In this document: positions 1-57,930 of the stretch, piece by piece
Layout: each line of letters opens with the position of its first letter
How positions within the stretch are numbered: the stretch's first letter is position 1
DNA from: Octopus vulgaris
Lineage: Eukaryota
Length of the DNA: 64,000 bases
Direction: 5' to 3'
Assembly: GCA_951406725.2 (NCBI GenBank)
Contig: OX597835.1
Span: 46,314,001-46,378,000, forward strand
Notes under the pieces: generated by a model
What the model was told of the DNA's origin: nothing
Databases searched by the model: none
The model's input: only the letters and a program-made list of their open reading frames with translations
Position numbers and translations under genes: made by a program

Positions 1-1
1 T

Positions 2-522
2 GATGGGAAGCAGGAGGTAAAGGGTGACAGAATCAAGGCTAAAGGAAGCCCTGTCCAGAGAAAGCAGAGGGACCCCAGCAAAAACTGTAAGGGCAGGGAA
101 AGAAACACCTGCAAATTCTACCTGAGGGGGACTGCTGGTACGGCGTTGAAGGTGCAAACTGTCGCTTTGCACATCGGAGGCCCTACCAAAACCGCACGGA
201 CGCGAGACAGAGGTCCCTCCCTCAGGGAGAACAAAAACAAAAAGTTAAAAGAAGGGAAAAAAGCGCACTGACCACTACTGAAAGACGGTATGCAGATGTG
301 GTGCGCGGAAACCCAACAGGTGGCCAGCTTCACCCAGATGTGAGAAGGGCGGCAGCTGAACAGCAGTCTTTTTTGTGCATGGCACAAAAAATTGTTCAGC
401 AGCTGACCTGGCTACAAGCACAAAGCTGGAACTACCACCACATAAGGCCACCTCCAACAGATGCAGGATGGCCACCACAGACACCAACACCAACACACAC
501 ACCACAAAAATATTTCTACTGA
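2..522 (+). CDS. LINE ORF1 C-terminal part with CCCH zinc finger; 1-bp frameshift near 126-130
   Basis: Frame 2 reads ...NTCKFYLRG; frame 1 from 130 reads DCWYGVEGANCRFAH... and is open to TGA at 520-522; overlaps the ORF2 start. Confidence 0.7.
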
Positions 523-3478
523 ATGTAGGAGGGCTGCTGCGCGGAAACTGTAAAAAGAAAATTTCATTCCTGAGAGACCTTGTGACATGCAATCAAGCTA
601 TATGCATGGCACTCACAGAAACGCATCTTGAACCCGATATAGGTGATGCAGAAATACACATGCCGCAATATGCAGTCATACGCACAGATAGAAAAGGGAG
701 GAGCCATGGTGGAGTTGCAATGTACATCCGAGATGACCTCACGCCCCAGGTCCTGCTGTCATATTCAAACTCAGTATGTGAAACTCAAATTGTACACATA
801 AGACAACTGAATATCGTCATATGCACTACATATCGCCCACCAGACGCCCCAAAACACTCAGGCATGTTTGAAGACTGCCTAACAAAAATAGGAGAAGTCC
901 TCACCAACCTTGAACAGCACAACAGTGTATTCTTCATGGGTGACTTTAACCTCCCCAATGTGGAATGGCCTGGGGGGCAGATGCTCCCAGGGATGACACA
1001 CCATCAGCAGGCACAGGTGGAGTCCCTGCTCCATCTCACAAATACCTCTTTCATGGAGCAAATAGTTCTGCAACCAACAAGGGCAGATAATATACTGGAT
1101 CTCTGCTTTACAAACAATATGGATATTATCCATAATGTTAATGTGATGCCGACAATGATCTCGGATCACAACATAATAGAGCTGTCTACGTATGGAACAA
1201 AAGCCCCCGCAGACACACAGCCTATACGAAGCACCCACCATCTCTCCAACTTAAACTTTCATAAAGCCAACTGGAAGTCGATTGAGAAAGAGATCCTCAA
1301 ACAGGATTGGCCTGAATGTCTCTCCACACCGGACATAAACATGAAACACAAACACTTCATGTCCATAATACAAGCCATATGTGACAAATATGTCCCAATG
1401 TGCAGGGCCAGCACACACAAGAATAAAAACAGGATCCCTAGAGAAAGGAGGATTCTTATGAGACGACGGACAAGGATTGCAAACCGCCTGAGCAAGCACA
1501 CCAAAAGTGGTGAGAAGTCTCGGCTCGAAAGAATGCTAATGGAAACTGAGAAAAGTCTACATCAGTCCCATGAAAAGGAGAGAGCAGATAAAGAAGCTTG
1601 GGTAATAGAAAATATAAAATCAAACCCTAAAGCTTTCTTTAAGTTTGCCAAAGAGACAGCCACAGTGCACCAGAGAATAGGACCTCTCTTCCAAAAAGAT
1701 GGCTCTCTCACAGGAAATCCCACGAGGATAAGTGAAATACTGAACGAACAGTTCCAAAGTGTATTCACTACACCTCTAGGACACAGGCAAGTAAACAACC
1801 CAGAAGAATTCTTTGCCACTTTACCAGCGGCCAAAGAGACAAAAATTGAGTACATCAACATCGAAGAAGATGATATCACACTAGCCATTGATGAGATTGA
1901 CACAAACTCAGCTGCTGGACCTGATGGATTCCCAGCGATCCTTCTCAAATCGTGCAAACGAGCCCTTGCAAAACCGCTACAGCTTCTTTTTCAGAGCTTT
2001 CTTGCAAGTGGTAAGCTCCCAGTCAAACTGAAAGAGGGGGTAATATGCCCTATCCATAAGGGAGGTAGCAGAGCAGATGCTAAAAATTATAGGCCTATCT
2101 CTCTGACCTCACACATCAGCAAAGTCATGGAACGAATAGTCCGTAAGAAACTAATCATGTTTCTTGAAGAAAATGACTTACTGTCTGACACCCAGCATGG
2201 ATTTCGACCAGGTAGAGGCTGCCTAACACAGCTCCTGCAACACTATGACTGGGTGTTGAAACAGCTACTAAATGGCTCAAATGTGGATGTAATATATCTT
2301 GACTTTGCAAAAGCCTTTGATAAAGTCGACCATGGTATGATCTGTCACAAACTGCGTGGTCTCGGCATAGGCGGGAAACTTGGAGAGTGGCTGCACAACT
2401 TCCTAAAAGACAGAAAACAGGCAGTTGTGAGCAATGGAGCCACCTCCAGGGAAACGCAAATAACAAGCGGTGTCCCACAGGGCACTGTCTTGGGGCCACT
2501 GATGTTCATAGTGGCCCTTTCAGACATGCCTTCAGTTGCTACGATGACCACCCTTGCTAGCTATGCAGATGACACAAAGGTCTCCCACGCAATACAGAAC
2601 CCTGAAAATATTGCGCATCTGCAACATGAGCTGGACACAATATACAGGTGGGCTGAGGACAACAACATGCAGTTTAATGCAGGTAAGTTCCAGGCCCTGC
2701 GCTACTGGCACACAAAGGTAAATGACGTGAAGACTGGATACACTGGCCCAGGAAGAATTGCAATCCCTGAGTCAAAATCAGTGCGTGACCTGGGCATTGA
2801 CATGAGCAATGATGCATCTTTCCAAATGCATATTGCTAATCTGGTGATAAAATGCAGACGGCTAGCTGGATGGATTCTCCGAACTTTCAGAACAAGAGAG
2901 AAGGAGACACTGATGGTCCTATGGAAAACATTTGTCCTCAGCCGCTTGGACTACTGCTCCCAACTTTGGTCACCACACAATATAAAACAAACAGCAGAAC
3001 TCGAAGCAACTCAGAGAAGCTACACAAAGAAAATCGTCTCAATGCAAAATGTCAGCTACTGGGAAAGACTGAAGGTATTAAACCTCTTCTCCCTGGAGCG
3101 GAGGCGGGAGAGATATGCAGTAATATACATCTGGAAAATCCTGGAGGGTCTTGTCCCAAACTTTGGCATTCAAAGTTACTCCAACCGCAGAACGGGCGCC
3201 GCTGCGTGGTGCCAAGGATTCCAACATCACCATCAAAATACAGGTCCAGATACTGCAACAGCTTGGGTTTCAGAGGACCACAGCTTTTCAACATCCTCCC
3301 TAAATGCCTGAGAGACTTACATGGTGTGGATGTGGGTTTCTTTAAAACTAAACTGGATCTCTTCTTGTTGGGAGTCCCAGATGAACCTACCTCACGACAG
3401 GAGACACGGATGCGGGCAGCAGCATCGAACTCCCTTGTTGATCAAGTGCCACGTATCAGAGGTGGATTCACAAACTAG
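468..3478 (+). CDS. LINE ORF2 endonuclease-reverse transcriptase; frameshift near 3195
   Basis: APE motifs (LTETHL, YRPP, GDFN, LDL, SDHN) and RT motifs (YRPISLTS, QHGF, YLDFAKAFD, GVPQG, YADD); C-terminus (GRRCVVP...GPQLFNILP...VPDEP) continues in the 2852-3478 frame. Start at the 468 ATG is inferred; the ORF track starts at 375. Confidence 0.92.
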
Positions 3479-3550
3479 TGTGGCTCATTCAGCGGTGGTG
3501 CCCCAGCATGGCCGCGGCCTTCGGGCTAAAACATTTTTAAGGATTTAAGG

Positions 3551-3605
<55 letters not shown>

Positions 3606-4180: not shown

Positions 4181-4995
4181 GTGTTTCAGTAAAAGCGGTG
4201 TCATTATATGGGGCTGAGACATGGCGAACAACGGTTAAGTCAAATAAGCAAATACAACCATTCATCAACAGATGCTTGTGTAGTATACTTAAAATTAGAT
4301 GACCCGAACACATAAGTAATATGGAGCTATGGCAAAGAACAAATCAAGTTTCGATTAGGGAGCAAATATTTAAGAAAAAGTGGAAGTGGATTGGTAACAC
4401 AATTAGAAAAAACACACCAAATGTAGCGAAAAGTGCTTTACAGTGGAATCCGGATGGATATAGAAAGAGAGGTAGGCCTAAGAACTTGTGGCGTAGATCA
4501 ACACAAAAGGAACTAGAGAAAGGGGGACATTCATGGCAGAGTATAAGTACAGAAGCGAAAAATTAAGCGACGTGGAATTCAACTATAACTGGCCTTTGGC
4601 GGTTGGATGGAACCTACACTCGCCTCCTTATGAGAGCTCAAAATCTGTCGTGGAAGCGCCATCCAACCAAAATGCAAGTATATGGGAAACTACCACCTGT
4701 GTCATCTCTTGTGAAAGGTAGGAGAGTCCAGTTTGCTGGACATTGTTGTAGAACTGAAAAAGAAGTAATTTCTACTCTTCTCCTCTGGAAGTCATCTACT
4801 CGCAATACCAGAGGGCGCACACTCTCCTACCCTGATGTAATCTCCAGGGATACAAGAATCCAGCAACAGGACCTCCGTAATGCCATGATGGACCGTGAAG
4901 TCTGGCGTAGCATGGTAAATTCCATTGTCTCGACCACGGTCGAACAATGATGATGATGATAACTGGCCTATACTCCACGTTGGCGGGTTAAAGGC
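4181..4995 (+). mobile_element. RTE-clade LINE 3' fragment, interrupted by a second RTE
   Basis: LYGAETW...WKWIG...ALQWNPDGYRKRGRPK..WRR with in-frame stops; resumes as GLYST after 4969. Confidence 0.85.
4596..4958 (+). mobile_element. 5'-truncated RTE-clade LINE with (TGA)n tail and 11-bp TSD
   Basis: LDGTYTRLL...RRVQFAGHC...AMMDREVWR; ATAACTGGCCT at 4585-4595 and 4959-4969. Confidence 0.88.
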
Positions 4996-5305: not shown

Positions 5306-5510
5306 GAGGCGCAATGGCCTAGTGGTTAGGGCAGCGGACTTGCGGTCGGAGGATCGCGGTTTCGATTCCCAGACCGGGCGTTGTGTGTGTTTATTGAGCG
5401 AAAACACCTAAAAGCTCCACGAGGCTCCGGTAGGAGGTGGTGATCCCTGCTGTACTCAAAAGGCGGTGCTCCAGCATGGCCGCAGTCAAATGACTGAAAC
5501 AAGTACAAAA
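5306..5510 (+). mobile_element. Chimeric tRNA-derived SINE (family B head, family A tail)
   Basis: A box TGGCCTAGTGG and B-box-like GGTTTCGATTCC; head matches 47119+; tail GGCGGTGCTCCAGCATGGCCGCAGTCAAATGACTG matches family A. Confidence 0.85.
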
Positions 5511-5558
5511 AAAAAAAAATATATATATATACATATATATTAAAAATACACGCATCTA

Positions 5559-7108: not shown

Positions 7109-7273
7109 GGCGCAGGAGTGGCTGTGTGGTAAGTAGCTTGTCTACCAGCCACATGGTTCCGGGTTCAGTCCCACTGCGTGGCACCTTGGGTGAGTGTCTT
7201 CTACTATAGCCCCGGGCCGACCAAAGCCTTGTGAGTGGATTTGGTAGACGGAAACTGAAAGAAGCCCGTCGTA

Positions 7274-7315
<42 letters not shown>

Positions 7316-7540
7316 TGTGTGTGTTTGTGTGTCTGTATTTGTCCCCCTAGCATTGCTTGACAACCGATGCTGGTGTGTTTATGTCCCCGTTACTTAGCGG
7401 TTCGGCAAAAGAGACCGATAGAATAAGTACTGGGTTTACAAAAGAATAAGTCCCGGGGTCGAGTTGCTCGATTAAAAGGCGGTGCTCCAGCATGGCCGCA
7501 GTCAAATGACTGAAACAAGTAAAAGAGTAAAAGAGTAAAG
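7109..7540 (+). mobile_element. tRNA-derived CORE-like SINE, family A, full length
   Basis: tRNA head (TGGCTGTGTGG / GGTTCAGTCC), CORE-like CACCTTGGG..AGTG, internal (TA)n, tail ending in (GTAAAAGA)n. Confidence 0.92.
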
Positions 7541-7567
7541 ATATATATATATATATATATATATATA

Positions 7568-8390: not shown

Positions 8391-8550
8391 AGGAGTGGCT
8401 GTGTGGTAAGTAGCTTGTTTACCAACCACATGGTTTCGGGTTCAGTCCCACTGCGTGGCACCTTGGGCAAGTGTCTTCTATTATAGCCTCGGGCCGACCA
8501 AAGCCTTGTGAGTTTATTTGGTAAACGGAAACTGAAAGAAGCCCGTCGTA

Positions 8551-8626
<76 letters not shown>

Positions 8627-8847
8627 TGTGTGTGTTTGTGTGTCTGTGTTTGTCCCCCTTGCATTGCTTGACAACCGATGCTGGTGTGTTTATGTCCCCG
8701 TTATTTAGCGGTTCGGCAAAAGAGACCGATAGAATAAGTACTGGGCTTACAAAAGAATAAGTCCCGGGGTCGAGTTGCTCGATTAAAGGCGGTGGTCCAG
8801 CATGGCCGCAGTCAAATGACTGAAACAAGTAAAAGAGTAAAAGAGTA
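8391..8847 (+). mobile_element. SINE family A, near full length
   Basis: Near-identical to 7109-7540 except for internal (TA)n length. Confidence 0.92.
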
Positions 8848-16976: not shown

Positions 16977-17356
16977 TTACTCTTTACCCTTTACTCTTTT
17001 ACTTGTTTTAGTCATTTGACTGCGGCCATGCTGGAGCACCGCCGCCTTTATTCTATCGGTCTCTTATGCCGAACCGCTAAGTGACGGGAACGTAAACACA
17101 CCAGCGTCGGTTGTCAAGCAACGCTAGGGGGACAAACACAGACACACAAACACATACACACATACACATACACACACACATATATATACATATATACGAC
17201 AGGCTTCTTTCAGTTTCCGTCTAACAAATCCACTCACAAGGCATTGGTCGGCCCGGGGCTGTAGCAGAAGACACTTGCCCAAGATGCCACGCAGTGGGAC
17301 TGAACCCGGAACCATGTGGTTGGTTAGCAAGCTACTTACCACACAGCCACTCCTGC
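16977..17356 (-). mobile_element. SINE family A, reverse orientation, with an internal deletion before the tail
   Basis: Reverse complement of 7109-7540; lacks the GTACTGGG...CTCGATT segment. Confidence 0.92.
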
Positions 17357-18244: not shown

Positions 18245-18409
18245 GGCGTAGGAGTGGCTGTGTGGTAAGTAGCTTGCTAACCAACCACATGGTTTCGGGT
18301 TCAGTCCCACTGCGTGGCATCTTGGGCAAGTGTCTTCTGCTATAGCCCCGGGCCGACGAATGCCTTGTGAGTGGATTTGGTAGACGGAAACTGAAAGAAA
18401 TCTGTCGTA

Positions 18410-18450
<41 letters not shown>

Positions 18451-18660
18451 ATGTGTTTGTCCCCCTAGCATTGCATGACAACCGATGCTGGTGTGTTTAC
18501 GTCCCCGTCACTTAGCGGTTCGGCAAAGGAGACCGATAGAATAAGTACTGGGCTTACAAAGACTAAGTCCCGGGGTCGATTTGCTCGACTAAAGGCGGTG
18601 CTCCAGCATGGCCGCAGTCAAATGACTGAAACACGTAAAAGAGTAAATGAGTAAAGAGTA
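18245..18660 (+). mobile_element. SINE family A, full length
   Basis: Same head, body and tail as 7109-7540. Confidence 0.92.
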
Positions 18661-40605: not shown

Positions 40606-40966
40606 GTATATGTACATATGTATATATACTGTTGTGTCTGGGGAGAGGTATTCTCTTTTATAATTTCACACATTTTAGAAAAATAAGTAAATGAGTGGAA
40701 ATTTTACCGGTGTGTGTGTTAAATCATGAGGCATTAAAAGAGAAGGACTCTCCCCAGACACAACAGAATATGCTTCAACACACGAACTCATATAAAGAAA
40801 CTTGCAAACCAAATCCAAAAACCGATGTAACTATCCGTCCGATAAAATAAGCACTAGGCTGACAAAGATGCAAGTGCTGGGGTCGATTTGCTCTACTAGA
40901 GGCGATGCTCCAGCATGGCCCTAGTCAAATGATTGAAACAAGTAGAAGAATAAAAGAATATATGTA

Positions 40967-42832: not shown

Positions 42833-45800
42833 GATCTCTGGTTCTCTTCAAGTTTGTTCCTCTAATTAAACACTTTCAAAACCAGCGTGATAAATATATG
42901 TTCACTGAATTAGCGTGTAGTATATAATAATTTTCGTTGTTTGTTTCTTCGAGTATTTTCCGTGTGTCTGGATGGGGTTTTATGTAAACGAGCGTATATG
43001 TACGAGGAACGTTTGCGAAGCTATTCTATGGGGTGGGGTTGAACTGAACAAATATCTACTGAGGAATGGTCGTACGGTTCTAAATCCGCACGATGGATGA
43101 ACTCTTTCCGAGTTGAAGATTTTTCTGTAGTTGTTTCTATCTTTTATCTTTCGCCTGTTTCAGTCACTGAACTGCGGCCACGCTGGGGCACAGCCCTCAA
43201 AAGATTAGTCGAACAAAGCGATCCGCGGACTTAATTTTTAAGCCTGCTATTTTTATACCAGTTGGAATTGTATAGTGGTAAAGCGATACTTTGGAGAATA
43301 TGGCGTATCTCTATAAACATGGGTCTCTACAGTCGCGTGAAGGAGACAGAATTAGAGAGATGGAGGGAGAGAGAGAGAGAGAGAGTGTGTGTGTGCGGTG
43401 GTGGTGGTGGTGGGGCGTATGTGTGTGTAACCGGTGTAATTGTATCGCGGGAGAACTATTCATTCAACTGTCATTAACTACCATCATTTTCATATTTATC
43501 AATTTCTGCTTCTTCTTGTATTCTTGCCTTTTGTTAACAATATTAAGCAGTGAACTGGTTGGGTGGTTATGGCATCGGATAAAATACATCGCAGTTTTTG
43601 GTTTGAATCCCTATTGTTCAGAGTTCAATTCCCGCCGCGATTCACTTCAACATTTCAATTTGTCGGCGTCAATGGATATGCAGAATTGCAGACCGTCGGA
43701 CTGGATACTTGTGGCTTTGTTTTGATTGTGCTCTGAGTTCAAATCCTGCCGAGATGTGACCTCAGTGAGTCGTAAACTTATCCGAATCCCCGTTTAATGC
43801 CACCATATGGAAATTTGTGTACCTTTAGCGGCGCGCAGTGTGTTGTAAGCCCTTGTCCAAGTTACTGTTTTTGAGAATACCTTCCTAATTATCTTCCACT
43901 AGACTTGGAACCCTGTAACATGTGAGGAAAGTAAACAGGAAAAATAATACCCAAAAACAACTCTTGTTCTATTATACCTAACCTTGTTTTTGATGCTTTG
44001 TTACTATTTAGCCTATTATAAAGCCTGATCAAGTTTACGACTTCAACGAATTTCTACACGAAACACGCTAATCCATTAGCAAGTCTTACATAAATTATTT
44101 TAAAGGCAATAAACAAGCAAAATAAATATGGGCGCCAGTTTCTTTAAAAGCAATTCAATTACATTGTTTATTATATTCGTGTTGTGGTTGATACAGTTCG
44201 CACATACAGGCGCACATACGGTACGGTCATGGAGACAGTAGTTGGGAGGAGAGAAAAGTGGAAAGAAACAATGATGAGCAAACCTGTGGTCGGTGAAAAG
44301 ATATTGAGCCGTAAACGTAAACATTCCATCATTCTAATGGCATGTACGTCTGTATTGCCTCAGGTCTCATTCTTCTTCTTTTTTTTTTGTTTTTGTAAGG
44401 TTTTGGGGCATAACTTGAAGCAAAATTTGACACAAGCCGCTCGTTCTAGAGGATTCTGTGACTCTACAGGTTACCTTTTCACTCCAAGTATTGAATTTGA
44501 ACATTTAGGAATTGTTTCCCCATGTAGGATGTTGTCTTTTGTTGTCATGGTTGTTGCCCTTGCTCGCCCCTGTTCTTCTTCACTCCGGATCCAGAAGGCC
44601 TATGCTGCAAAGCAACCAAACAGCGACGATTAATCTTCTTATAAAGTTATGGTGAATATAGGACGATATGAATTTCTTGTTTTAGTTTCTTCAGAAGACG
44701 ATATGGATTGACTTCACAGATATTTGACTGCTATTTCTATGAGATCGATAGAGTTTGCACAAACTCACTCGTCAACATCAATTCATCATACTCAGCTACA
44801 GATTTTAATCAACGGCTCAAAGTTGCGTGACGCCTTATTTTTATTTCTATTACTGCTTTGTTTTATTGAACTCGCATGCTTCGGTAAATCTCTCCAGCTA
44901 AATAGATGCGTTTCACTGATTAATTTAACCGGTTCTTTAAGGATGAAATGCAAATTTGATCTTGGCTTAGAAAGGTCGGAATCATTATCAACAACCTCGA
45001 TTATACCTCGCTTTAAAGAGGTGTCGCGGTATGGCCGTAGACTTATAAGTGAAACTTCATTTCTTACGCTCTAAGTAGAATAACAAGTAGAACGTTGCTG
45101 GGGTTTCTCTGGTCATGGAAACAAAGCGTGGAACGGTTGAAAAATAGAGAGAAACAATGATTCCATGGAATTCTCAAGTAGGAAACAAACGGAACATGAA
45201 ATGCAATCATCTGGTCGGAATGCTTACATCAGAGTGGATTCTGCGAAAAACACAAATGGGTTAAATCGTAGAATAAATGAACTAAATGATAAATCTCTCC
45301 ACTAAAGGTCAACTAAAACCAACAATTTAGGCTGATAGTATTTGAAAAGATACAAGTAATATTGGTGATAATCTAAATCAAACTAATCACAAGTTATTAA
45401 TTACTGCTGTAATTAAAAGGGTCTCTACAGCTAGGAAATCTAAAAGCTTTTTTCTTTTAAAGCCAAGAATGAATGTCACACAATTTCATTTCCTAGAGCC
45501 TTGCAACTTGTTGTAGTTGTTGTTGGTGTTGTTGTTGTTGTATGTTCCTATATCGAACCCTTGTGAGAAAGCATTCCAACTCGATGAACATCAATGTGAC
45601 TGTATTATGCAACAATGTCACTGACACAACCTTTTTTTAAATTTTAATTAAACGTCAATACATGATTTAAGAAAAATTTGGCTGCTATTTCTAGCAACTC
45701 GAGTTTTCACGTAGTTCATTTTTTTCTGGTTGTTCGTTTTAGGCTCGATGCCTTTAAGAGGGGGAAAAAATCAATTGAAACTATACAATGGGTTTTAGCT

Positions 45801-50864: not shown

Positions 50865-51584
50865 CTGTAAGGAACAAGGAAAGTGAGGCAACGTAGAATT
50901 AATCAGCTTGTAAACCGAGCTGGGCACAGCCACCATGGGTGGACAATGTGCTAGAAAGAGAAAACAAGCATGATTCAATCAAGACTCTGTTTACTTCTTG
51001 GGGTGCGCATACACATGCATATAAGCGCGCACACACAGACGCACATATATAATGGTGTTGTGGGTGTGTATCTTTTTACTTGTGTCAGTCATTAGGCCGC
51101 AGCCATGCTGGGCAGCGCCTTCCAAGATTTAGTAGAACAAATGCAATTCAGTAGTTAATTTTTTAAAAATTTAAGCATGGTGTTTATGCTACCGAAGTCC
51201 TTGTGACGTAAACAAATCAGCGCCAGTTGTCAAGTGATGGTGGGCGACAAACACAAAAGCACACACAAACACACACACACACACACGCACGCTCACGCAC
51301 ACACACGCACGCACACACAGATACACGCTCATACACACACACACGCACATACATACACGTATGCACACACACACATACGCACGCATACACACACGCACGC
51401 ATACACACACGCACGCACACACACATAAAACGCACATACACATACCCATACATACACGCACGCTCACACACACACATACACACACACGCACGTCCACACA
51501 CATACACATACGCATACACAAACGTGCACGCACGCACGCACACACACACACACAGATATATATATATATGTATGTATGTATAAT

Positions 51585-51869
51585 GAGGTCACGCGGCCTA
51601 GTGATTAGGGTATTCGGCTCATGATCGTAGGGTCACAAGTTCGATTCCCGGTGGGCTGATGTGTTCTTGAGCAAGACACTTTATTTTCCGTTCCTCCAGT
51701 CCACTCAGCTGGCAAAATGAGTCGCACCTGTATTTCAAAGGACCAGCTTTGTCAAACTCTGTGTCACGTTCAATCTCCCTGAGAAATAAGTGCACACTAA
51801 TTTCATTAGTAAGCTGTTCCGTTGAGCAGATCAAGTGGAGCCCTCCTCGTCGTAACCGACGGAGTGCCA
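51585..51869 (+). mobile_element. tRNA-derived SINE (family D head and core, family B tail)
   Basis: GTGTTCTTGAGCAAGACACTT...CTCCAGTCCACTCAGCTGGCAAAATGAGT core shared with 55420+; tail shared with 47305-47482. Confidence 0.82.
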
Positions 51870-52066
51870 GTATAGTATAGTAAAATACCGTTAGAATAAG
51901 TACTAGGCTTACAAAAACTAAGTTCTGGGATCGATTTGTACTCCAGAATGGCCGCAGTCAAATGACAGAAACAAGTAAAAAATTAAAAACAGAAAAGGAT
52001 ATAGATATATAGATAGATAGAGGATTGATGTCTCTTTCTTTCTTTTGTTATCTTACCGTTTTACCA

Positions 52067-56176: not shown

Positions 56177-57865
56177 GATATAAAGAATTATCGCATATGA
56201 TATTTACTGCCAGCTCCTATTGTTGTCCTCGCTCCAAAAACCACCTGATATCGTAATTCTAAAATCTGCAATCATTTGCTCTGAATTCTATGTTGCTTCA
56301 TTCTTCATTAAATATTTTCCTAATTATTGCTCACTTCGCCATACTATTGTTCTGTGGCCGGTTCAGATCGTGTATTATTTTTATGGAACTGAACTGGAGA
56401 GGAGAAATGTTGCCATTTCCTTGTAAAGCTCTGAGAAACAATAAGAATTTGCATACGTGAAAATATCTCGAGGCGCAGAACCAAGTCCATGGTTACCGTG
56501 ACAACTGGCACCAACTGTAGCAACAATAGCACCACTATCAACAACCATAGCAATAACACTATACTAAGGAGGAAGTCACTAGAGAGAAACGGCACTGAAG
56601 TCTAGCTAAAATCATGACCCATTATGGTGAAGAACGAAGGTACAGATTGGATGATTTAATGCAAATAAGCGAAACTATATCTTGTGTAAAGAGAAAACAT
56701 AGACGGTAAGGACACCTTTTGTGAGGTACATCAAAAACCACCTTTAAAATGTCTGAGTAACAATGTGAAGTATGATAAGAAATCGATTAATCAAGAATCA
56801 GAACGGGTACAATTCCATACAGAAGCGTACTCTAACCAATCTCCATGTGAGAGGTGCTTACTCCTCCCAGATAGAGTGACTTGACGTGGTTCCACAACAC
56901 GTTAGAAGTAGCAATCAAATTTTGCTCAAGTCCGACTGAATCGTCCCAGAGAAGAACAGGTTTTCTAAAAGATGGGATGTTTGCAGCTTCAATGATTTTG
57001 ATCATTGATCTACTCAATCAAGTCTGACTTAGGGTTGAAAGCTTTCAAGACAACAGCAACATAGGGTAGTGAACTGGGAGTGTCGGAAATGACAATGAAA
57101 ACTGCCACACATTGAGTCAAAATTCGGGTGGTTGTCGGTTTCTACTAGTAGGTCAAGTGAACAACTGGAGGCCTTCCACTTTGACTTAAAAATAACGATA
57201 ATGAATAACAAATTAGGATAACTACGCTCATTAAGCAACCATTTTAAATGCCTGATCAATCAAACTTTCCTAAAATTAAGAGGAGACATACTGAAACGAG
57301 GAAATTTATTGCCAAATAATAACAAAAACAAATTTTTCAGAAATAAAAAAAAAAAAAAAACAGAACACAAAACAAAAGACAAAACTATCCAATGGTATTT
57401 CGATCAGCATTTTTATTTATTTGTTTTGTCTTTTTCAGACAGTTCCATTGTATGAGGTAATTACCAACTTCCATTATGCAAAGACGAGGTTGATAATGTA
57501 TTTTTAATTTATTTTATTATAATTAATAATTGTTTTTTTTTTTTATTTTTTATTTTATTCCCTTACTCTTTCATTATGATTTGATTTCTTTCAATAAATT
57601 ATGTTTCTAAAATGAATTAAGCAATAAACCACGAGTCAAGTGAAAGGAGTTTTATTTTACCATTTTAACCTTTTACTTGTTTCGCTCATTAGACTGCGGC
57701 CATGCTGGGGCACCGCCTTGAAGATTTTTTTTTAGTTGAATGAATCGATCCCAATACTTTTTTTCTAAAGCTTGGTACTTATGCCGAACAGCTAAGTTAC
57801 GGGGAAGTAAACACACCAGCACCGGTTGTGAAGCGGTGGTGGGGGGAACAATAGACACGCACTCT

Positions 57866-57930
<65 letters not shown>

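What the first reader, a model, noticed from the sequence alone, without database searches (positions are those of the whole stretch)
3490..3553. LINE 3' end and dominant SINE tail share a motif plus a covarying hairpin (candidate LINE-SINE partner pair)
Seen: the LINE ends GGTGGTGCCCCAGCATGGCCGC-GGCC-TTCG-GGCT-AAAACA-(TTTAAGGA)2. SINE family A (7109, 8391, 16977, 18245, plus tail fragments) ends GGCGGTGCTCCAGCATGGCCGC-AGTC-AAAT-GACT-GAAACA-(GTAAAAGA)n. The ~22-nt motif is nearly identical. The 4-bp stem with 4-nt loop keeps its pairing although the sequence differs, and both end in an 8-mer repeat. Older tails near 57680-57718 and 51080-51120 (minus) carry LINE-like variants (GCCCCAGCATGG; GCGGCC). 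Known: stringent LINEs of the CR1/L2 group recognise a 3' stem-loop that partner SINEs borrow. Inference: this LINE lineage mobilises the most abundant SINE here, and structure is the recognition signal.
Basis: partly seen in the sequence, partly recalled or inferred. Interest (0 to 1): 0.72.

Follow-up and report, generated by a model that had tools for sequence, protein, structure and literature searches.

The report
Octopus SINE borrows CR1 double-hairpin tail
A very common short repeat in this (likely octopus) genome ends in the same roughly 45-base tail as a whole group of related self-copying LINE elements and likely uses that predicted double-hairpin tail to borrow their copying enzyme, a familiar kind of partnership, although the LINE family at these coordinates is probably not where the tail came from.

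Summary
The tail at 3492-3553 is the true 3' end of a young CR1-like LINE family: 28 of 30 copies picked without the tail carry it unchanged. It is also clade-wide. Seven related LINE families end in the same two predicted hairpins. Hairpin 1 keeps its sequence; hairpin 2 changes its stem in matched pairs while its loop varies freely. The dominant SINE took its last ~45 bases from this clade. The window's family is not the best donor: an older, apparently dead sister family has the SINE's exact stem (8 of 8 bases versus 5 of 8). No LINE with the SINE's loop was found, and SINE A sits in TA repeats far less often than this LINE. A very young chimeric SINE (window 5306; about 50 same-junction copies, median 0.3% divergent) captured just this tail, so some currently active enzyme likely reads it. 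This is a known kind of system (as oyster CR1 with bivalve SINEs); no octopus pair turned up in the papers searched. Earlier scan notes pair a different SINE with Tx1 in this genome; look-ups by this tail's sequence returned nothing.

The parts
1..3553 (+). LINE1 copy (CR1-like non-LTR retrotransposon), 5'-truncated within ORF1; it starts about 354 bases before the window and has (TA)n on both sides
91..522 (+). 3' part of ORF1; an uninterrupted copy elsewhere has weak CCCH-finger and Myb/SANT hits below cut-off
360..3478 (+). ORF2 (endonuclease plus reverse transcriptase); the frame shifts at a G run near 3194, and the C-terminal part ends at the stop at 3476-3478
3492..3515 (+). LINE tail hairpin 1 (predicted): sequence-conserved stem with a G-G mismatch and a 4-nt loop
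3516..3527 (+). LINE tail hairpin 2 (predicted): GGCC/GGCT stem, TTCG loop; the stem covaries and the loop varies across families
3528..3553 (+). (G/A)AAAC motif and family-specific TTTAAGGA terminal repeats
5306..5519 (+). Very young chimeric SINE: a SINE-B-type tRNA-like head joined at about 5458 to the SINE A tail, ending in poly(A) (5507-5519)
7109..7541 (+). SINE A, young subfamily; tail 7478-7516 (hairpin-2 stem AGTC/GACT, loop AAAT)
8391..8846 (+). SINE A copy with tail
16977..17356 (-). SINE A copy with an internal deletion before the tail
18245..18655 (+). SINE A copy with tail
57670..57925 (-). Old-subfamily SINE A 3' part (ancestral GCCCC loop 1, TAAT loop 2)
51074..51281 (-). Decayed SINE A 3' part; its GGCC variant does not pair fully with its own 3' arm
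40839..40948 (+). SINE A 3' fragment with tail (similar fragments at 43148-43239 minus and 51887-51980 plus)

Best explanation
The ~45-base 3' end is shared by a clade of CR1-like LINE families and by the dominant SINE, and it likely acts as the RNA handle by which the ORF2 proteins of this clade pick templates for target-primed reverse transcription. The SINE likely captured it long ago from an older member of the clade (a LINE4-like family or its ancestor, not the window's young family) and has likely been copied since by whichever sister family was active. The handle is predicted to be two tandem hairpins. Hairpin 1 (conserved sequence, G-G mismatch) is likely read by sequence. Hairpin 2 is likely read by shape only, since its stem changes in matched pairs and its loop varies freely. 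The GAAAC motif and terminal repeats likely mark where copying starts. Shown here: shared terminal position, family-level stem states, relative ages, repeated capture of the module by a second SINE head. Inferred: folding in vivo, binding, and which family does the copying.
For: The tail is integral to LINE1: 28 of 30 loci picked by a protein query ending before the tail are identical over 3476-3532, and the other two differ by one-base indels (the 30 include the window's own copy). All 20 of 20 older copies carry it, 16 with the GGCC/GGCT stem. The same terminal architecture ends LINE2 (30 of 30 loci), LINE3 (15 of 15; same fold with the G-G mismatch, z -3.8) and the older LINE4, 5, 6 and 7. 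On 20 hand-picked copies, 92.7% of cells pair against 21-41% for slid controls. The two covarying hairpin-2 pairs have no unpaired cell: CG12/UA5/UG2 and CG10/UA8/UG1. Permutation over 7 lineages gives p = 0.0014 (lineages are not independent). SINE subfamilies from about 17% to 3% divergence keep the AGTC/GACT stem while loop bases change. A second SINE head is joined to this tail at many different junctions (80 exact matches, control 0; 49 share the window's junction by my count of the list). That chimera is median 0.3% divergent, 14 of 28 with no substitution; 15 of 25 copies lie at TA repeats, and 1 of 10 outside them has a duplication of 7 or more bases. LINE4 has no young copies (best non-self hit 87%; 7-13% from majority), while LINE1 has uninterrupted 1039-codon ORF2 copies (3 of 20). 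Precedent: CR1-14_CGi with bivalve SINEs (PMC4824008, section 11).
Against: No LINE with the SINE's exact hairpin-2 loop was found: 0 of 6, 0 of 12, and 0 of 145 SINE-type tails directly joined to an ORF2 end. In zebrafish L2 elements the loop sets specificity and swapped loops abolish retrotransposition (PMC4176376, section 13); here the hairpin-2 loops of LINE1 and the SINE share 0 of 4 bases. SINE A lies in TA repeats much less often than any sampled family: 4 of 31 young tails and 13 of 59 heads, against LINE1 43 of 46, LINE2 35 of 48, LINE3 9 of 15, LINE4 13 of 29, random 8%. The oldest SINE subfamilies (~17%) look older than the LINE4 copies sampled (~10%), so the identical stem could be convergent. 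The covarying base pair of hairpin 1 sits on two CpG sites, which weakens it. The young chimera ends in poly(A), not in the clade's repeats (27 of 29).
Confidence: 0.8

Rival explanations
1. A dedicated, still unseen sister LINE family with the SINE's exact hairpin-2 loop and a weaker TA preference is the strict partner; loops set specificity as in ZfL2, and LINE1 cannot mobilise the SINE.
For: Loop specificity in ZfL2-1/2 (PMC4176376, sections 13 and 19); every LINE family has its own loop and repeat; insertion-context mismatch; own-genome searches score only the best candidates.
Against: Exact-pattern searches coupling an ORF2 C-terminal motif to the SINE-type stem gave only 12 and 6 matches, all old or variant copies and none with the SINE loop. 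A young family of this subclade should have given many. 0 of 145 tails are joined to ORF2, which cannot exclude a family under about 2% of tails.
Confidence: 0.3
2. The window's own family (LINE1) is the main mobiliser of SINE A.
For: LINE1 is active and autonomous and has copies 95-99% identical that overlap in age with the 3% SINE subfamily. Four older LINE1 copies carry AGTC/GGCT, one step from the SINE stem, but they were selected for AGTC.
Against: Stem 5 of 8 and loop 0 of 4 identical to the SINE; TA flank 43 of 46 versus 4 of 31, p = 2e-13; SINE subfamilies go back to ~17% divergence; 20 of 20 unselected older LINE1 copies lack the SINE stem.
Confidence: 0.2
3. The tail is an inherited relic in recent SINE copies; the young poly(A) chimera (and perhaps recent SINE A) is copied by a poly(A)-reading L1/Tx1 enzyme.
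For: Poly(A) of 8 or more in 27 of 29 chimera copies; many L1/Tx1-type elements with long ORFs and A-rich ends exist in this genome.
Against: 0 of 30 zf-RVT loci carry the tail motif; no clear target duplications outside simple repeats (1 of 10, itself in a TAA repeat) and 15 of 25 copies at TA repeats; the captured piece begins just at the base of hairpin 1 in independent junctions; SINE A itself has no poly(A).
Confidence: 0.1
4. The tail at 3492-3553 is a SINE fragment inserted after the LINE, or the match is chance.
For: Tail-only insertions are common in this genome.
Against: Present at the same place in 30 of 30 and 20 of 20 LINE1 copies and in six other families; 11 matches versus 0.26 expected.
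Confidence: 0.01

Closest known systems
CR1-14_CGi (oyster) with BivaV-SINE2 and BivaCORE-SINE1 (Nishihara 2016, PMC4824008: passages and section 11 read; one supplement searched, one not searchable; figures not held). Also Vhc_1 SINEs (Matetovici 2016, PMC4758252, passages) and CR1/CR1-Zenon partners (Martelossi 2024, PMC11481361, passages)
   Same: Mollusc tRNA-derived SINEs sharing a 3' end with a CR1-group LINE, with stem-loops and compensatory changes; 35-61 bp of homology at 72-95% identity in bivalves; several SINE heads on one tail; the risk of picking a sibling LINE instead of the true partner is noted there too.
   Different: Here the host is a cephalopod; seven sister families are resolved with stepwise stem changes; a chimeric SINE of very recent origin is caught. 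I could not compare tail sequences with the bivalve ones because the figures are not held.
ZfL2-1 and ZfL2-2 stringent L2 LINEs (Hayashi 2014, PMC4176376: abstract and sections 13 and 19 read)
   Same: A 3' stem-loop followed by short repeats; stems are exchangeable if pairing is kept.
   Different: One stem-loop whose loop sets specificity, in the L2 clade. Here there are two tandem hairpins, and the terminal hairpin's loop differs between the SINE and every LINE found.
Octopus SINEs OK, OR1, OR2 (Ohshima and Okada 1994; paper not held; seen only as cited in PMC4824008, PMC4758252 and PMC5804259; the name OK is recalled)
   Same: tRNA-derived octopus SINEs, OR1 or OR2 being listed as CORE-SINEs; SINE A contains the CCTTGGG motif named as conserved in CORE/Ceph domains (PMC5786205, passages).
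   Different: Identity of SINE A with one of them was not tested. No octopus entry appeared in a text search of Ohshima 2013, which holds the table of 58 SINE/LINE pairs (PMC3747384, passages; 'octopus' 0 occurrences).
Recently active CR1 LINEs and SINEs of Octopus vulgaris (Bonar 2026, PMC13282606: parts 1-2 of 3 read; supplements not read)
   Same: Reports 13 recently active CR1 families and 900 recently active SINE families in an octopus.
   Different: The parts read make no SINE-LINE pairing and no tail analysis; their deposited library may already hold these families.

Membership tests
Stringent SINE/LINE partner pair | SINE 3' end homologous to the 3'-terminal sequence of a LINE | tested here: met
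   29 of 41 identical to LINE1, terminal in both; homology starts at hairpin 1
Stringent SINE/LINE partner pair | Conserved stem-loop with compensatory changes | tested here: met
   R-scape was not available
Stringent SINE/LINE partner pair | Same loop sequence in the SINE and its cognate LINE (ZfL2 rule) | tested here: inconclusive
   Hairpin-1 loop YCCA shared by six families and the SINE; hairpin-2 loop 0-1 of 4 identical for all six compared
Stringent SINE/LINE partner pair | Shared terminal repeat | tested here: not met
   For LINE1: TTTAAGGA versus GTAAAAGA. LINE6's AAAAGAAT resembles mid-aged SINE copies.
Stringent SINE/LINE partner pair | Overlapping activity periods | tested here: inconclusive
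   SINE 3-17%; LINE1 0-10%; LINE4 7-13%; LINE samples are biased to top hits
Stringent SINE/LINE partner pair | Shared insertion footprint | tested here: not met
   Not met for SINE A versus LINE1 (4 of 31 versus 43 of 46 in TA repeats); closer for the young chimera (15 of 25)
Stringent SINE/LINE partner pair | Trans-mobilisation depends on the tail | not testable with these tools
   needs a cell assay
CR1 clade LINE | ORF2 with APE endonuclease and RT, without zf-RVT, RNase H or PF09004; non-poly(A) repeat tail (criteria recalled) | tested here: met
   An uninterrupted 1039-aa ORF2 hits only RVT_1 and Exo_endo_phos families; repeats seen
CR1 clade LINE | Groups with reference CR1 elements in an RT phylogeny (versus CR1-Zenon, Crack, L2) | not testable with these tools
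   No named reference set on hand; protein and Atlas searches gave generic names only. 'CR1-like' also rests on a recalled C-terminal motif.
L1/Tx1 partner | Tail motif at the 3' end of zf-RVT-coding elements | tested here: not met
   0 of 30 loci, of 150 matches listed
tRNA-derived SINE (SINE A) | tRNA-related head with A and B boxes | tested here: inconclusive
   Box-like motifs are visible by eye at 7109-7190 and 5306-5380; ARAGORN found 0 genes; Rfam gave no tRNA hit at E up to 1

The most novel reading that the evidence does not exclude
This LINE clade uses a clade-wide handle rather than a private one. Sequence-conserved hairpin 1 plus any correctly paired hairpin 2 is enough, so a SINE outlives its donor by passing from one sister LINE to the next without changing its tail. 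The same 45-base module, often dropped as a tail-only cDNA, keeps founding new SINE families, one of them almost today. This would break the loop-specificity rule drawn from zebrafish L2 and give a ready-made natural mutant series for mapping LINE RNA recognition.
Probability: 0.4. Interest if true: 0.62.

Novelty: new member of a known kind. Interest (0 to 1): 0.45.

Why it matters
It names the likely enzyme source for a SINE with an estimated 3 x 10^5 copies (72 tails in 600 kb extrapolated) in a group where SINEs are a main repeat class and where the papers searched name no partner. Tail sharing itself is textbook. The added value is the graded series of seven LINE families, several SINE subfamilies and a newborn chimeric SINE. 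Together they make it directly testable whether CR1-type enzymes read a loop sequence, a fold or both, and how SINEs survive the death of their donor.

Tried and rejected
Protein searches of the own genome with P0001 and P0002 returned only the young LINE2 family. Random sampling (600 kb) held few LINEs of this clade. Coupled motif patterns found the older families. One further protein search for sister families was not run, so families closer to more distant relatives may be unsampled. Distant relatives from metagenome contigs (24-47% identity) showed the hairpin-1 motif in 0 of 26 loci examined out of 80 fetched, several with little 3' flank: no evidence of deep conservation. Rfam gave only simple-repeat noise below gathering scores. 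The ESM Atlas gave generic RT names. Tx1 as tail donor was rejected for the 30 loci checked. The inserted-fragment reading was rejected. The 51100 variant as a LINE-like intermediate was rejected. The first duplication test was anchored 20 bases inside the element and was redone. The 3'-flank TA measure uses a fixed 60-base window that includes terminal repeats of differing length; the 5'-junction counts agree in direction (16 of 20 LINE1 versus 13 of 59 SINE heads). Public runs were contigs only, and their RNA labels are guesses, so expression is not shown. Literature: all 10 searches used; none listed a paper whose passages pair an octopus SINE with a CR1 tail. Ohshima 1994 and two other papers asked for by id were not held; Repbase, Dfam and the Bonar 2026 library could not be seen.

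Full report
Observation. The window begins inside a LINE whose ORF2 carries endonuclease and reverse transcriptase domains. After the stop at 3476-3478 come the motif, the hairpin and the TTTAAGGA repeats, then (TA)n. The 13-base core occurs 11 times in the window against 0.26 expected. The other ten are tails of SINE A, fragments of it, and a second SINE type at 5306. The host is likely an octopus: the best named protein relative is from Argonauta hians at 63%.

The tail belongs to the LINE. A 303-base query gave 40 of 40 scored matches at 100% among 1900 candidates. A protein query that stopped before the tail gave 30 loci, of which 28 are identical over 3476-3532 and two differ by one base of length. 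Twenty older copies (95-99% identical) all carry the tail. Three of 20 long copies have an uninterrupted 1039-codon ORF2, with only RVT_1 and endonuclease hits. The family (LINE1) is therefore young and autonomous, and CR1-like by domain content; clade placement by tree was not possible.

The tail is two hairpins and is clade-wide. Folding gives hairpin 1 (3492-3515, with a G-G mismatch and 4-nt loop) and hairpin 2 (3516-3527) in both LINE and SINE. Six further families end the same way. LINE2 (about 75% DNA identity, young) has stem AGCT/AGCT and AATC repeats. LINE3 is young and 47% identical in protein to P0002, which is itself 74-76% identical to LINE1 and LINE2. It has stem GACCA/TGGTC, a longer hairpin-1 loop and the same G-G mismatch. 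The older LINE4 has AGTC/GACT, LINE5 and LINE7 have AGCT/AGCT, and LINE6 has AGCC/GGCT with AAAAGAAT repeats. These stems are the commonest states among decayed copies (LINE4 exact in 10 of 29, LINE6 in 6 of 24). On 20 hand-picked copies, 92.7% of cells pair, slid controls give 21-41%, and the two inner pairs of hairpin 2 switch between C-G and U-A with no unpaired cell. A permutation over seven lineages gives p = 0.0014. Lineages are related and the copies were chosen by me, so these numbers overstate independence. On the body tree the inner pair changed from T-A to C-G about three times (LINE1, LINE4, LINE6), and one older LINE1 copy shows a T-G intermediate. Two of six single-copy folds were weak (z -0.4 and -1.1, both old copies). 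Hairpin 1 is mostly conserved in sequence, and its one covarying pair lies on CpG sites.

Which family is the partner. Against the SINE's hairpin 2, LINE4 matches 8 of 8 stem bases, LINE6 6, LINE1 5; loops match at 0-1 of 4 for all six compared. LINE4 has no young copies: best non-self hit 87%, 7-13% from majority. SINE A subfamilies lie at medians of about 17, 12, 6 and 3%, all with the same stem, and the oldest have the LINE-type GCCCC loop 1 (119 copies). Insertion context argues against LINE1 as the main driver. (TA)4 follows 43 of 46 LINE1, 35 of 48 LINE2, 9 of 15 LINE3 and 13 of 29 LINE4 ends, but only 4 of 31 young and 7 of 41 older SINE A tails, against 8% of random windows. The 5' junctions agree. 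Tx1-type elements do not carry the tail (0 of 30).

A natural test. The element at 5306 joins a different SINE head to the last ~45 bases only. Most copies of that head have another body (2 of 31 carry the tail). A junction pattern gave 80 exact matches and no control match; 49 share the window's junction by my count and the rest show many other junctions, all entering just before hairpin 1 (the pattern itself limits the gap to 12 bases). Twenty-eight same-junction copies are median 0.3% divergent, 14 without substitution, and 27 of 29 end in poly(A). Of 25 near-full-length copies, 15 sit at TA repeats, and only 1 of 10 others has a duplication of 7 or more bases. So the SINE-type tail was copied very recently, long after LINE4, with a footprint closer to the young CR1-like families than to L1/Tx1 (whose target duplications I recall from general knowledge). 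Tail-only insertions beginning at the base of hairpin 1 are frequent, and short-read contigs show loose ends at 3489-3496, which suggests a ready route to such captures.

Mechanism. By analogy with stringent L2 elements, where ORF2 binds the 3' stem-loop, stems are exchangeable and loops give specificity (PMC4176376), I infer that ORF2 binds the two-hairpin end and primes reverse transcription at a TA step. The conservation pattern points to hairpin 1 as the sequence-read part and hairpin 2 as shape-read. I put 0.8 on the tail being derived from and served by this clade. Within that, clade-wide recognition gets about 0.4, an unseen strict partner about 0.3 and LINE1 as main driver about 0.2. 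None of these steps was tested biochemically.

Comparison and novelty. The same kind of pairing with compensatory changes is published for oyster CR1 and bivalve SINEs (PMC4824008; PMC4758252; PMC11481361). Octopus SINEs and active CR1 families are described (PMC8967140 passages; PMC13282606), but the passages read name no partner, and ten searches found no such paper; key older papers and Repbase were not available. Earlier scan notes on this genome pair a Nin/Deu-type SINE with Tx1 and report U6 fusions to a CR1-type tail. Sequence look-ups for this tail returned nothing.

Noticed in passing
window 3193-3195 and LINE1 loci L001-L030: About half of the youngest LINE1 copies (13 of 30 short, 15 long, 2 truncated) share the same shorter G run that shifts the ORF2 C-terminus. 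No linked variant was found, and both forms appear in short-read contigs, so this may be a real defective sub-lineage copied in trans rather than an assembly error.
   Followed up: partly
window 1-3553 and loci L001-L060, L445-L464: LINE1 inserts mostly into (TA)n microsatellites: 16 of 20 5' junctions and 43 of 46 3' ends. One literature search listed no paper on a TA-targeting CR1 by title (listing only).
   Followed up: partly
window 5306-5519: Very young ~195-base chimeric SINE family with a poly(A) end; about 50 same-junction copies plus independent captures.
   Followed up: yes
L176-L179, L181, L183 (five on G000:C26 near 145-441 kb, one on C64): An old LINE copy whose tail is replaced by a tRNA-like sequence, repeated as part of a larger duplicated unit.
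   Followed up: no
window 51577-51990 (+): A third SINE head type followed by the 3' part of SINE A; chimera or nested insertion not resolved.
   Followed up: no
window 4183-4950: Two decayed fragments that resemble C-terminal parts of RTE-type LINEs by eye (recalled resemblance); not searched.
   Followed up: no
L098:3292-3520 and L153-L167 (LINE3): LINE3 copies carry a tandem duplication of about 40 bases across the ORF2 end, shared by the top-scoring near-identical copies.
   Followed up: no
window 2700-3540: The LINE1 3' stretch is held at 82% or more of sampled words in 19 public runs labelled with nine coded organisms; host range or contamination was not examined.
   Followed up: no
L241, L264, L270, L272, L223, L234, L149: Tail-only insertions of LINE2 type and SINE type starting at or just before hairpin 1, often in (TA)n.
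   Followed up: partly
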